64,000 bases of DNA from Escherichia coli O157:H7 (GTDB lineage: Bacteria; Pseudomonadota; Gammaproteobacteria; Enterobacterales; Enterobacteriaceae). Position numbers: made by a program. The stretch lies in assembly GCF_013167455.1 (NCBI RefSeq), contig NZ_CP038328.1, one strand, 5' to 3'. Each line of letters begins with the position of its first letter. The first letter of the stretch is position 1. Of the stretch, positions 24,201 to 27,200 are shown one piece after another.

Positions 24201-27200
24201 GTGGATCTGGTTTTCGCGCCCTCGGTAAAAGAGATCTACCCGAACGGTACTGAAACCCATACTTACGTTGACGTTCCAGGGCTTTCGACCATGCTGGAAG
24301 GCGCCAGCCGGCCGGGGCATTTTCGCGGCGTGTCGACTATCGTCAGCAAGCTGTTTAACCTGGTCCAGCCGGACATCGCCTGCTTCGGTGAAAAGGACTT
24401 TCAGCAACTGGCGCTGATCCGCAAAATGGTTGCTGATATGGGCTTTGATATTGAGATTGTCGGTGTGCCAATTATGCGCGCCAAAGACGGTCTGGCACTG
24501 AGTTCCCGTAACGGTTATCTGACGGCAGAACAACGCAAAATTGCGCCCGGTCTGTACAAAGTTTTAAGTTCGATTGCCGACAAATTGCAGGCTGGCGAAC
24601 GGGATCTCGATGAAATTATTGCTATTGCCGGGCAAGAACTGAATGAAAAAGGCTTCCGCGCCGATGATATTCAGATTCGCGATGCCGACACATTGCTGGA
24701 AGTCTCTGAAACCAGCAAACGGGCAGTAATTCTGGTAGCCGCCTGGCTTGGCGATGCTCGCCTGATCGACAACAAAATGGTCGAGCTGGCGTAATACTTA
24801 TACTCTAAATAATTCAAGTTGCAAGTTGCAGGAAGGCGGCAAGCGAGTGACAAATTCGTCAGGAACGAATTTGCCCAGCCGCAGGCTGGCCTTCGGTGAG
24901 AGACATGGATGTCTCTCATTAATCCCCAGGAGCTTACATAAGTAAGTGACTGGGGTTAGCGAACGCAGACGCAGCACATGCAATTTGAAGTATGACGAGT
25001 ATAACTGGCGCTACGGCTGATGGCGCCAATTATTAATTTGCCCCACGTCATGGCGATGGCGTCTGTAAGCAATTATTCATAACGCAGACAACTTAGTTAA
25101 TCAGCCTATCAATCTCAGCAAGAGATAAATTTGTCATCTCTGCAACGTCTTCCCGAGACATCCCTTTACTCAGAAAACGCTGGGCGAATTCTTGCCTCTC
25201 CTCCTGTCTTCCCTGCTGAATCCCCTTCTCAATCCCTTTCTCTTCAAACCACTGTGCCAGCGTCATCATAGACTTCCCTCCCGTTTCCCTGTCTCTCAGC
25301 ACACCATAAAACAAATCCGCTTGTTCAGTATGACCGCGTTGCAGCATATAGTTTTGCATGGCAACTAACTGACTTTCGCTAGTGTACCCTTCGTCAATCA
25401 GCGTGACCAGTTGCTCCAGCAATAACATTAAGTCGCGCTGGCGAATATGTTTTTGCAGTAGTTCGAGAATCGCAATCCGCCGATGTTGCATGATTTCGTC
25501 ATCCGGTGTGATGGTGATATCCACCAGCGGGAAAGGACTGTTATAGACGCGTCGCGCCAGCTCCGGCGAGTAAAACATATCAAACCAGCACATTGAGAGC
25601 GGATAAGGTGTGGCCTCGCCCTGATAAAAGAGAATCGGCACTACCAGCGGTAGTTTGTCGTGATCCGCCTCCAGATGCCGATGCATGGCGGCTATAGAAT
25701 AACGCATCATGCGAAAGGCCATTTTCTTATCCGGCTTGCTTTGGTGTTCAATCACAACATGCAGATAACCGGGATTGCCCTGCATTTGCACGGAATAGAG
25801 CACGTCCGTGCTGTGTCCTTTAAGGCTCTCTTCAATGAAACTCCCCGACTCTAAATGAAGCGTGTTGAGGTCACAAAGTTCGCGTAATTCCACTGGCAAA
25901 TGTATCTCCAGAAAGTCGCGAGCCGTCTCCGCATGCATTAAAAATTGTTTAAATACCGCGTCATGCGGTGTGGTACTCGGTGCATCCATCTTCCCTGTCT
26001 TCCGTGTTGTCTTGCGTGAAGGCAGTATCCAGTCAAGGCGTGCTATCGTCAGCCACCTCTTTATTGTTTACCGAGCAGCGTTCAGAGAAATATCAATTCG
26101 TTACAGGCGATACATGGCACGCTTCGGCGCGGTACGCAAACTGCTGATGCAAATGCCGTCAGATGAGTAGACACTAAACAAAAATCGGGCAATACTGCGT
26201 GAGAATTTCCTCAAAGCAGGCACCGCCTGCTTCGTTAACGACAGGGTAGAAAGGTAGAAGTTATGATTCGCACGATGCTGCAGGGCAAACTCCACCGCGT
26301 GAAAGTGACTCATGCGGACCTGCACTATGAAGGTTCTTGCGCCATTGACCAGGATTTTCTTGACGCAGCCGGTATTCTCGAAAACGAAGCCATTGATATC
26401 TGGAATGTCACCAACGGCAAGCGTTTCTCCACTTATGCCATCGCGGCAGAACGCGGTTCGAGAATTATTTCTGTTAACGGTGCGGCGGCCCACTGCGCCA
26501 GTGTCGGCGATATTGTCATCATCGCCAGCTTCGTTACCATGCCAGATGAAGAAGCTCGCACCTGGCGACCCAACGTCGCCTATTTTGAAGGCGACAATGA
26601 AATGAAACGTACCGCGAAAGCGATTCCGGTACAGGTTGCTTGATTGTTATCCCTGCGGCTGGTTACTCACCAGCCGCGACATCGTCTCCAGCGAATCCGT
26701 TCTTAAGATATAAAGTCGTTTTAGTAACAACGGATTATCCCCCGGTTTTACTTTGCCTTTCATGGTTGTCACCGCCAGGTGAAATCCGGCATCGTTTGCT
26801 GCCTTCACGGCTTTGTCATTAAAGCCGCCAAACGGATACGAAAGATACCAGACATGCGGATTAAATTGCGCCAGAGCGCGACGTGAACGTGCAAAATCAA
26901 ACAGAATATTGTGCTCACTACGGCTCAGTAATATGGGTCGGCGATAACCATCTACCCGATGCAAAAAATGGGTATGTGACTGGAAATCAAATACATCGCG
27001 AATTTCGTTAAGCTCAGAAACGCTCATAAATTGCAGCGATTTTGGTTCCCACTTCTGCGGGTGACGTTTGATGCGCGAGGTAACAATAAACGCCGTCGCC
27101 TTCATGCCATATTGTTTCAACACAGGATACGCATAGCGGCTCACTGACTTGAGGCCATCATCAAAGGTAATCACCACCGCTCGCGCAGGAAGATTGATCT

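What the first reader, a model, noticed from the sequence alone, without database searches (positions are those of the whole stretch)
24795..25092. Long-form ERIC/IRU repeat inserted between panC and rpnC
The panC-rpnC spacer is ~298 bp here and contains the ERIC core inverted repeat plus a ~70 bp internal insertion with its own palindromes. I recall a spacer of only ~70 bp in K-12, so this looks like a strain-specific ERIC insertion sitting in the 3' region of both convergent genes.
Basis: partly seen in the sequence, partly recalled or inferred. Interest (0 to 1): 0.3.

Follow-up and report, generated by a model that had tools for sequence, protein, structure and literature searches.

The report
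Long-form ERIC repeat downstream of panC
The panC-rpnC gap of this O157:H7-type E. coli holds a 205-bp copy of the well-known ERIC mobile repeat with a 71-bp hairpin module nested inside it; K-12 lacks it, and this is an ordinary, already described kind of strain polymorphism.

Summary
Confirmed. The panC-rpnC spacer is 298 bp here (24795-25092) and 73 bp in K-12. Of the 225 extra bases, 203 are one block inserted 4 nt after the panC stop codon. It is an ERIC/IRU miniature transposon (24801-25001) flanked by a duplicated TA; K-12 has a single TA at that point. With its internal 71-bp module and a 7-bp duplication removed, the element matches a 127-bp K-12 ERIC at 122 of 127 positions. The other 22 bp are an unrelated indel on the rpnC side.

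The same TA has four states in 5,426 complete E. coli genomes:
- empty, about 5,000 genomes;
- short 127-bp ERIC, 19 genomes;
- long ERIC, about 100 genomes, including O55:H7 and early O157:H7;
- long ERIC plus the 7-bp duplication, about 300 genomes (main O157:H7 lineage, and this window).

The conserved terminator-like hairpin (25006-25028) now lies downstream of the element. The ERIC is therefore probably a structured passenger in the panBC 3' UTR, in a region reported as convergently transcribed in K-12. Any regulatory effect is inferred, not shown.

The one less ordinary point is the 71-bp module. It behaves as a separate, structurally conserved mini-insertion, and it also occurs in an unrelated repeat of a methanotroph.

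The parts
23943..24794 (+). panC CDS (pantoate--beta-alanine ligase); stop codon TAA at 24792-24794
   Evidence: ORF list; RefSeq annotation of the 100%-identical record NZ_CP030767.1
24799..24800 (.). Left copy of the duplicated TA target site
   Evidence: K-12 empty site reads TAATACT-TA-ACTGG. The window reads TAATACT-TA-[201 bp]-TA-ACTGG (coordinates read)
24801..25001 (+). Long-form ERIC/IRU element, 201 bp (205 bp counting both TAs); termini TACTC...GAGTA
   Evidence: Pairwise alignment with K-12; 122/127 identity to the K-12 pgk-fbaA ERIC after removing the module and the duplication; long closing stem in the RNA fold
24815..24828 (+). 7-bp tandem duplication CAAGTTG-CAAGTTG in the left arm, specific to the main O157:H7 lineage
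   Evidence: The unit is single in ETEC1717, E1V33, O55:H7 and early O157:H7 strains, where the matched span is 7 bp shorter than in EDL933-like genomes
24851..24921 (+). Nested 71-bp module inserted between GAGTGA and ATCCCC of the ERIC left arm. Three hairpins: 24851-24873, 24875-24889 and 24895-24920
   Evidence: A short-ERIC allele at the same locus (RMDEC465) reads GAGTGA|ATCCCC; module fold has z = -4.8; helices covary across genera; one copy per genome, in 611 of 5,426 genomes
24924..24955 (+). Conserved ERIC central inverted repeat (core). It overlaps the ERIC1R site (24918-24939, 20/22) and the ERIC2 site (24940-24961, 21/22)
   Evidence: Exact pattern match with none found in 100 shuffles; primer matches; primer sequences from PMC3696847
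25002..25003 (.). Right copy of the duplicated TA
   Evidence: alignment; sequence
25006..25038 (+). Pre-existing terminator-like hairpin (TGGCGC...GCGCCA) with tail ATTATTAATT. It is conserved in K-12 and in all empty-site alleles, and the insertion pushed it 203 bp away from the panC stop
   Evidence: Terminator scan; present in K-12, CT29, L008, L009 and LP5-1; folds independently of the ERIC
25050..25071 (.). 22-bp segment absent from K-12 but present in several empty-site alleles. It is an independent indel in the variable rpnC-proximal spacer and is not part of the ERIC
   Evidence: L007 and L010 have it without an ERIC
25093..25989 (-). rpnC CDS (recombination-promoting nuclease RpnC, 298 aa; 300 aa in K-12)

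Best explanation
The extra DNA is a copy of the ERIC/IRU (RU-1) miniature inverted-repeat transposable element. It inserted at a TA dinucleotide 4 nt downstream of the panC stop codon, upstream of the resident terminator-like hairpin, and duplicated the TA.

This copy is a long form. A separate 71-bp string-of-hairpins module is nested in its left arm at GAGTGA^ATCCCC. In the main O157:H7 lineage a 7-bp unit (CAAGTTG) has also been duplicated.

Shown here: identity, boundaries, target-site duplication, the allelic series and the predicted strong folding.

Inferred: the element has no gene of its own and is carried passively in the 3' UTR of the panBC mRNA. It is probably also crossed by antisense read-through from rpnC/rpnCS. 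There it forms a long branched hairpin that leaves the terminator fold intact.

The left arm starts only about 6 nt after the stop codon, so a terminating ribosome would transiently open the base of the stem. This is the situation in which Yersinia ERICs were reported to expose an RNase E site and lower upstream mRNA levels. A modest effect on panBC mRNA stability is therefore plausible, but near-neutral hitch-hiking is the default.
For: Boundaries and TA duplication come from the K-12 empty site and from four further empty alleles on different haplotypes.

Family identity: 122/127 identity to a K-12 ERIC, an exact core, and both primer sites. Published ERIC properties are a 127-bp size, terminal inverted repeats, TA termini and TA target duplication (PMC2229807; PMC2759123; PMC3184786).

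Strain-variable ERIC loci are documented: 14 extra ERICs in non-K-12 strains, cited from Wilson & Sharp 2006 in PMC10969869.

Allelic series at this TA: empty, short ERIC (19 genomes), long (~100) and long plus duplication (~300).

Folding: z = -8.5 on the + strand and -5.5 on the - strand, with the terminator hairpin still formed.

Transcription context: rpnC-panC is listed as a convergent overlapping-transcription pair in MG1655 (PMC12288877). rpn genes have an internal start site giving an abundant short 3' transcript (PMC10400941). ERICs at gene 3' ends affect mRNA levels through RNase E in Yersinia (PMC2229807; PMC10969869).
Against: - No transcript data for this strain were available, so co-transcription and any stability effect are inferred.
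- No transposase for ERIC is known, so transposition rests on the TA duplication and empty sites only.
- The ERIC is 2-5 times less diverged than the adjacent panC coding sequence across haplotypes: 0/198 against 16/399, and 5/198 against 22/399. It is also present in a species only 91% identical. A purely neutral, ancient insertion does not predict this. It points to recent spread by recombination, repeated insertion at a hot spot, or constraint.
- The A or B orientation class of De Gregorio et al. 2005 could not be assigned because that paper is not held.
Confidence: 0.9

Rival explanations
1. Reversed polarity. The ERIC, long or short, is ancestral at this site, and K-12 and most E. coli lost it by precise excision. 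The window would then retain the old state and not carry a lineage-specific insertion.
For: The filled site occurs in Escherichia sp. E1V33, which is 91.4% identical over 8 kb. It also occurs on at least three panC haplotypes that differ by 5-7%. Each filled haplotype has a similar empty counterpart.
Against: About 92% of genomes are empty, each with exactly one TA. There are no direct repeats longer than the 2-bp TA to drive precise deletion. The ERIC is far less diverged than its flanks, which fits recent arrival better than ancient orthology.
Confidence: 0.1
2. Selected cis-regulatory RNA. The element is maintained because, as part of the panBC 3' UTR and as an antisense target of rpnC read-through, it tunes panBC or rpnC/rpnCS mRNA stability through RNase E or RNase III. 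This would make it a functional insulator in a convergent gene pair.
For: Very stable structure on both strands. Close proximity to the stop codon, as in the Yersinia RNase E model. rpnC-panC overlapping transcription in K-12. Lower divergence than the flanks. Compensatory changes in the nested module.
Against: About 92% of E. coli do without it. Both short and long forms exist at the site. No expression data are available. Low divergence can also result from recent spread. No curated RNA family matches at threshold.
Confidence: 0.2
3. An independent small-RNA gene, or a small protein gene, lies in the spacer. Candidates are the 61-aa ORF on the - strand that runs through the whole element and the 39-aa ORF on the + strand.
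For: ORFs at 24798-24983 (-) and 24826-24945 (+). ERIC-borne ORFs have been discussed in the literature (PMC2759123). Module relatives were catalogued as an Aggregatibacter sRNA (RF02902).
Against: There is no promoter-like site inside the element; only two weak ones lie outside it, not above shuffles. There is no Rfam hit at the gathering score. ORFs through a palindrome are expected by chance, and no homology evidence was sought.
Confidence: 0.04

Closest known systems
ERIC / IRU / RU-1 (enterobacterial repetitive intergenic consensus MITE; Sharples & Lloyd 1990, Hulton et al. 1991)
   Same: 122/127 identity to a K-12 copy. It shares the conserved core, terminal inverted repeats, TA termini, a TA target duplication, an intergenic position next to a stop codon and a long RNA hairpin.
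   Different: It carries a 71-bp nested module and a 7-bp duplication, giving 201 bp against the canonical 127 bp. The ERIC1R primer site is broken at its 3' end by the module junction.
Interrupted or long ERICs (Sharp 1997, 'Insertions within ERIC sequences'; Cromie, Collins & Leach 1997, Mol Microbiol 24). Recalled from memory; neither paper is held in the library.
   Same: Insertions of about 70 bp at specific internal ERIC positions that keep a well-folded structure. That is what is seen here and in Klebsiella, Salmonella and Yersinia copies.
   Different: I could not check whether those papers describe the same module sequence, its GA^A target, or its occurrence outside ERICs.
Rfam RF02902 AaHKsRNA22 (Aggregatibacter sRNA 22)
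   Same: Same architecture, ACAAAnnnn hairpin - hairpin - GC hairpin - GAG hairpin. The sister module M1, in an ERIC of E. coli LP5-1, scores 36.5 bits with E = 6e-4.
   Different: That score is below the gathering score of 39.8. The window's own module was not reported at E <= 10. Membership is not established.
Rfam RF02818 V_AS5 (Vibrio antisense RNA 5)
   Same: The model's two ends align to the ERIC arms, skipping the centre. This suggests the family is built on Vibrio ERIC-like repeats.
   Different: The scores of 22-31 bits are far below the gathering score of 96. It is a resemblance only.
Correia/NEMIS elements of Neisseria and other bacterial MITEs
   Same: Small TA-duplicating palindromic elements that are co-transcribed with neighbouring genes and processed by RNases (PMC10969869).
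   Different: There is no sequence similarity. Correia elements carry promoter or IHF motifs that are not seen here.
IS200/IS605-derived palindrome-associated elements and REP/REPIN (HUH-transposase substrates)
   Same: For the nested module only: no terminal inverted repeats, no target duplication, hairpins at both ends, insertion next to a short fixed sequence (GGAT on the opposite strand), and a seamless 'empty' state.
   Different: No associated transposase was found. The hairpins abut the ends rather than lying subterminally as in IS608 (from memory). This is an analogy and was not tested.

Membership tests
ERIC/IRU (RU-1) MITE | About 127-bp imperfect palindrome with the conserved central inverted repeat | tested here: met
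   Exact 32-nt core at 24924-24955. 122/127 identity to the K-12 pgk-fbaA ERIC once the module and duplication are removed. Primer sites 21/22 and 20/22.
ERIC/IRU (RU-1) MITE | Terminal inverted repeats and folding into one long hairpin | tested here: met
   Arms 24798-24826 and 24976-25004 are 79% complementary over 29 nt. The MFE fold closes the element with these arms, z = -8.5.
ERIC/IRU (RU-1) MITE | Insertion at TA with TA duplication, shown by an empty site | tested here: met
   K-12 and four other alleles have a single TA (TAATACT-TA-ACTGG). The window has a TA on each side of the 201-bp element. The property is cited in PMC2759123 and PMC2229807.
ERIC/IRU (RU-1) MITE | Dispersed multicopy family in the same genome | tested here: met
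   The spacer query finds a median of 5 places per genome by megablast in 4,877 of 5,426 genomes. Other loci were seen directly: pgk-fbaA, the ybfA region and ybhM-ybhN.
ERIC/IRU (RU-1) MITE | Located in a transcribed intergenic region and co-transcribed with a flanking gene | not testable with these tools
   The position, 4-6 nt after the panC stop and upstream of the terminator-like hairpin, implies it. Overlapping rpnC-panC transcription is reported only for K-12 (PMC12288877).
ERIC-mediated RNase E destabilisation (De Gregorio et al. 2005 model) | Element in the 'B' orientation next to a stop codon, with an RNase E site in the right-hand inverted repeat | not tested
   Proximity to the stop codon is met. 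The orientation class could not be assigned because the primary paper is not held, and no cleavage data exist.
Rfam RF02902 AaHKsRNA22 | Score at or above the curated gathering threshold (39.8 bits) | tested here: not met
   The window module gave no hit at E <= 10. Sister module M1 in L004 scored 36.5 bits and M3 scored 23.6 bits.
Rfam RF02818 V_AS5 | Score at or above the gathering threshold (96 bits) | tested here: not met
   22.4 bits for the window and 31.1 bits for L026.
Intrinsic (rho-independent) terminator | GC-rich hairpin followed by a T-run | tested here: met
   This is met by the resident hairpin 25006-25028 plus ATTATTAATT on the + strand only. The ERIC itself is not terminator-like. 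On the - strand the tail after the hairpin is GTTATACTCG, which is T-poor.
IS200/IS605-type palindrome-associated element (nested module only) | No inverted repeats or target duplication, insertion 3' of a fixed short target, and a cognate Y1 transposase | tested here: inconclusive
   No target duplication, and a fixed GA^ATCC context in ERIC and in a methanotroph repeat. No transposase-bearing relative was found in the DNA held, and no wider search was possible.

The most novel reading that the evidence does not exclude
The 71-bp 'internal insertion' may not be part of ERIC. It may belong to a separate, possibly undescribed family of ~70-nt string-of-hairpin mini-elements. These insert seamlessly, with no target duplication and no inverted repeats, at GA^A(TCC) inside the arms of unrelated palindromic repeats.

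Evidence that does not exclude this reading:
1. The same TA after panC carries an ERIC with and without the module, and the empty state is exactly GAGTGA|ATCCCC.
2. A near-identical module sits at GCCGGA^ATCCAG in one arm of a completely different repeat of 'Ca. Methylumidiphilus alinenensis' (Methylococcales). It shares 25 nt exactly, and its first hairpin is changed by compensatory substitutions. The other arms of that repeat are uninterrupted.
3. ERICs can carry up to three sister modules after GCAGGA, GAGTGA and GAGCGA.
4. Across Escherichia, Pseudocitrobacter, Klebsiella, Salmonella, Yersinia and the methanotroph, the two main helices are 96.5% paired, with 7 covarying pairs, against 23-45% in slid controls.
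5. One sister module nearly reaches the Rfam family of an Aggregatibacter sRNA.

The module is single-copy per E. coli genome yet less diverged than flanking genes, which would imply constraint or recent horizontal movement.
Probability: 0.3. Interest if true: 0.5.

Novelty: already known. Interest (0 to 1): 0.2.

Why it matters
For the finding as given, it matters little. It is one more strain-variable ERIC copy, a class catalogued since 1990-2006, in a genome lineage (O157:H7) sequenced in 2001.

Practical value is modest. The four nested states at one TA (empty, short, long, long plus 7-bp duplication) form a clean stepwise marker that separates O55:H7 and early O157:H7 from the main O157:H7 lineage. 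The locus is also a convenient natural system for testing whether an ERIC next to a stop codon changes mRNA fate in E. coli, inside a convergent pair (panBC against the rpnC toxin-antitoxin defence gene) already reported to overlap transcriptionally.

The nested module is the only part with discovery potential. If it is an independent site-specific element shared between enterobacteria and methanotrophs, it would be a new kind of 'parasite of a parasite'. It might also give a handle on the unknown machinery that moves these repeats.

Tried and rejected
- **Rfam scans.** A permissive scan of 24000-26000 gave only sub-threshold hits (snoRNA and miRNA noise, V_AS5 at 22 bits), so there is no curated family.
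- **LP5-1 ybhM copy.** I first read it as a chimera with foreign outer arms. I rejected that once the full sequence showed a normal ERIC carrying three nested modules.
- **Collection scans with the module's 20-mer.**
  - Viral contigs: nothing.
  - Species genomes: 7 stretches.
  - Metagenomes: 18 stretches, two of them (L019, L029) chance matches to the hairpin alone.
- **Search for a longer, transposase-bearing element.** I looked for one bounded by the module's end hairpins in all held DNA, using fuzzy patterns and covariance model R1 over 266 kb. Only the known compact copies turned up, and there was no second copy in the 64-kb window. R1 does not recover module M1, which was poorly aligned when the model was built.
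- **RpnC as the ERIC transposase.** Not pursued. Zhong et al. 2023 report that rpn genes lack inverted repeats and target duplications and act as toxin-antitoxin defence genes, and one adjacency is not evidence.
- **HS-01 allele.** Its left arm is G-rich and scrambled. I treated it as an assembly or sequencing artefact and did not use it.
- **Literature.** Wilson & Sharp 2006 and De Gregorio et al. 2005 are not held. Searches for 'ERIC + panC + yadD' and for descriptions of the ~70-bp insertions returned nothing usable. Two points therefore remain unverified: whether this exact locus was already listed, and what Sharp 1997 and Cromie et al. 1997 say.
- **Promoter scan.** Two weak sites on the - strand, outside the element, were not above shuffles.
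Full report

Yes. panC ends at 24794 and the convergent rpnC ends at 25093, so 24795-25092 is the whole 298-bp spacer. A 100%-identical RefSeq record annotates the same two genes. In K-12 MG1655 the spacer is 73 bp, at 147871-147943.

A pairwise alignment shows two differences:
- A single 203-bp block sits immediately after the panC stop codon.
- A 22-bp indel lies further toward rpnC (25050-25071). A 6-bp indel at the rpnC stop gives RpnC 298 aa here and 300 aa in K-12.

The 22-bp segment also occurs in strains that lack the large block (L007 and L010). It is an independent polymorphism.

**2. What the block is**

K-12 reads TAATACT-TA-ACTGGCGC. The window reads TAATACT-TA-[201 bp, TACTC...GAGTA]-TA-ACTGGCGC. 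This is a TA target-site duplication (24799-24800 and 25002-25003) around an element at 24801-25001.

The element contains the exact ERIC core at 24924-24955, with none found in 100 shuffles. It has inverted outer arms. Removing an internal 71-bp segment (24851-24921) and one copy of a 7-bp tandem duplication (CAAGTTG, 24815-24828) leaves a sequence that matches the 127-bp ERIC between pgk and fbaA of K-12 at 122 of 127 positions. The standard ERIC2 and ERIC1R primer sites are present at 21/22 and 20/22. The two ERIC1R mismatches fall at the module junction.

Every defining ERIC/IRU feature that can be tested in sequence is met: size, palindrome, terminal inverted repeats, TA termini, TA duplication and dispersed copies. 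These properties are taken from PMC2229807, PMC2759123 and PMC3184786. No Rfam family reaches threshold. The only resemblance is a weak hit of the arms to the Vibrio family V_AS5.

**3. Distribution and history**

In 5,426 complete E. coli genomes the same TA has four states.

| State at the TA after panC | Genomes | Examples |
|---|---|---|
| Empty or other alleles | ~5,000 | K-12 |
| Short 127-bp ERIC, reading ...GAGTGA\|ATCCCC... | 19 | RMDEC465 |
| Long ERIC with the 71-bp module | ~100 | O55:H7 CB9615 and RM12579; early-branching O157:H7 493/89 and LSU61; many commensal and animal isolates |
| Long ERIC plus the 7-bp duplication | ~300 | Main O157:H7 lineage including EDL933, and this window |

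The long form also sits at this site in Escherichia sp. E1V33, whose 8-kb neighbourhood is only 91.4% identical to the window. It is also present in human-gut metagenome contigs.

Across these haplotypes the ERIC is 2-5 times less diverged than the last 400 nt of panC: 0/198 against 16/399, 2/198 against 20/399, and 5/198 against 22/399. The short-ERIC haplotype has a panC about 7% different from all the others.

The element has therefore either spread recently across diverged haplotypes or is constrained. Spread could be by short recombination tracts or by repeated use of a hot-spot TA. I could not decide between these. 'Strain-specific' should be read as 'lineage-polymorphic'.

**4. Position and likely behaviour**

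The insertion lies between the panC stop codon and a hairpin (25006-25028, tail ATTATTAATT). That hairpin is conserved in every allele examined and is the only terminator-like site in the region. In K-12 it starts 11 nt after the stop codon. Here it is 203 nt further away.

Folded as RNA, the + strand forms a long stem closed by the ERIC arms, with the module hairpins as branches. The terminator hairpin still forms separately (-107.6 kcal/mol, z = -8.5). The - strand is also strongly structured (z = -5.5).

From this geometry I infer that the ERIC is transcribed as part of the panBC 3' UTR. Two published observations make antisense transcription across it likely:
- rpnC-panC is listed among convergent pairs with overlapping transcription in MG1655 (PMC12288877).
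- rpn genes have an internal promoter that gives an abundant short transcript for the RpnS antitoxin, running toward the gene's 3' end (PMC10400941).

The left arm begins about 6 nt after the stop codon, so a terminating ribosome should open the base of the stem. In Yersinia, this arrangement was reported to expose an RNase E site in the right-hand repeat and to lower upstream mRNA levels, in an orientation-dependent way (secondary sources). I could not assign the orientation class because the primary paper is not held.

None of this was measured here. Since about 92% of E. coli lack the element, near-neutral hitch-hiking is my default, with a modest effect on mRNA stability as the main alternative.

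**5. The nested 71-bp module**

This is where the evidence led beyond the finding.

In E. coli the module is rare and essentially single-copy: 611 of 5,426 genomes, with a median of one place. K-12 has none. It folds as three consecutive hairpins.

Other ERICs carry sister modules of the same architecture at two further positions. One element, at ybhM-ybhN in strain LP5-1, has all three, after GCAGGA, GAGTGA and GAGCGA.

Diverged copies occur in ERICs of Klebsiella, Salmonella and Yersinia. The Salmonella examples include the ybtP-ybtA spacer on IncC plasmids.

An exact 20-mer of the third hairpin occurs in only 7 stretches among one genome each of 100,044 species. Three of these are in a MAG of the methanotroph 'Ca. 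Methylumidiphilus alinenensis', and lake metagenomes add more copies. There the module lies in one arm of an unrelated palindromic repeat, exactly between GCCGGA and ATCCAG. Other arms of that repeat read GCCGGA|ATCCAG uninterrupted. This is the same GA^ATCC context as in ERIC.

The methanotroph copy shares 25 consecutive nucleotides with the E. coli copy, while its first hairpin differs by compensatory changes. On a covariance-model alignment of 16 distinct copies:
- 96.5% of cells pair;
- 7 of 18 pairs show double changes;
- slid controls pair at only 23-45%.

That alignment was fitted to the model, so the numbers lean toward the structure.

Sister module M1 nearly reaches the Rfam family RF02902, an Aggregatibacter sRNA, at 36.5 bits against a gathering score of 39.8.

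Together with the short and long alleles at the panC site, this indicates a discrete unit that is gained or lost seamlessly at a fixed short target. It has no target duplication and no inverted repeats. These properties recall HUH-transposase substrates, but no enzyme was found.

From memory, ~70-bp interruptions of ERIC that keep a good RNA fold were reported in 1997 (Sharp; Cromie, Collins & Leach). I could not read those notes. I do not know whether the occurrence outside ERIC is new.

**6. Comparison with what is known, and verdict**

The finding is a true member of the ERIC/IRU family in its known interrupted form, at a locus that varies among strains. A review citing Wilson & Sharp 2006 mentions 14 ERIC loci absent from K-12. 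That study probably covered O157:H7 genomes, so this copy may well be listed there; this is unverified.

I therefore rate the kind as already known and the interest as low. The residual novelty lies in the nested module and in the unexplained low divergence of the element relative to its flanks.

Noticed in passing
L007 696-905, L008 682-885, L009 682-897, L010 996-1175 (other E. coli strains, same locus): Many strains carry an extra ~70-aa gene between panC and rpnC, annotated 'hypothetical' or 'RpnC/YadD family'. It looks like a copy of the rpnC 3' end. It matches the rpnCSs second antitoxin gene described by Zhong et al. 2023 (PMC10400941).
   Followed up: partly
window 23124-24800 vs K-12 (L001); L040 1-740: panB-panC is only 93.7% identical between this window and K-12. 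The RMDEC465 panC end is ~93% identical to both. This is unusually deep allelic divergence for a housekeeping operon within E. coli and suggests old or imported haplotypes around the rpnC defence gene.
   Followed up: partly
window 24799-25003 vs L031, L005, L013: The ERIC, including its single-copy module, is 2-5 times less diverged than the adjacent panC coding sequence across haplotypes and even across Escherichia species. Neutral decay of an old insertion does not explain this.
   Followed up: partly
L005 1784-2481 (ETEC1717); H45 NZ_AP021896.1: In some long-ERIC strains an IS1A element has inserted a few bases before the rpnC stop codon, between the spacer and rpnC.
   Followed up: no
window 25050-25071 and 25093-25098: A 22-bp indel in the rpnC-proximal spacer and a 6-bp indel at the rpnC stop (298 vs 300 aa) relative to K-12. 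Both are independent of the ERIC and lie in the region that Zhong et al. describe as hypervariable.
   Followed up: partly
L004 ~1420-1745 (E. coli LP5-1, ybhM-ybhN); also L021, L024, L033: ERIC copies carrying two or three nested ~70-nt modules at separate positions (after GCAGGA, GAGTGA and GAGCGA). Modules M1, M2 and M3 occur in 11, 611 and 646 of 5,426 genomes, about one copy each.
   Followed up: yes
L015-L018, L020, L022, L023, L027, L030, L032, L034, L035 (Ca. Methylumidiphilus MAG and lake metagenomes): A ~330-bp palindromic repeat of a methanotroph has inner arms CGTCATTCCGGCAGGGATTGCCGGAATCCAG. One arm carries the same module as the E. coli ERIC. Its own family, ends and copy number were not characterised.
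   Followed up: partly
L039 434-526 (Salmonella IncC plasmid, ybtP-ybtA spacer): An ERIC with an M3-type module sits between ybtP and ybtA of the yersiniabactin locus. It occurs on many Salmonella plasmids (176 Salmonella records matched the query).
   Followed up: no
L036 (Klebsiella phage ST11-OXA245phi3.2, 57081-58007): The 'phage' record holds an ERIC with an M2-type module between rlmN and ndk, which are host housekeeping genes. The prophage record probably extends into chromosomal flank.
   Followed up: no
window 24798-24983 (-) and 24826-24945 (+): A 61-aa ORF on the - strand runs through the entire ERIC, including the module, without a stop. A 39-aa ORF lies on the + strand. ERIC-borne ORFs have been discussed by Delihas (PMC2759123). 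No evidence of expression was sought.
   Followed up: no
L041 640-720 (E. coli HS-01, same locus): The left arm of the long ERIC is replaced by a G-rich, scrambled version (GGAAGGGGGGGAGGGAGGG...). This is most likely an assembly or basecalling artefact in a hairpin-rich region.
   Followed up: no
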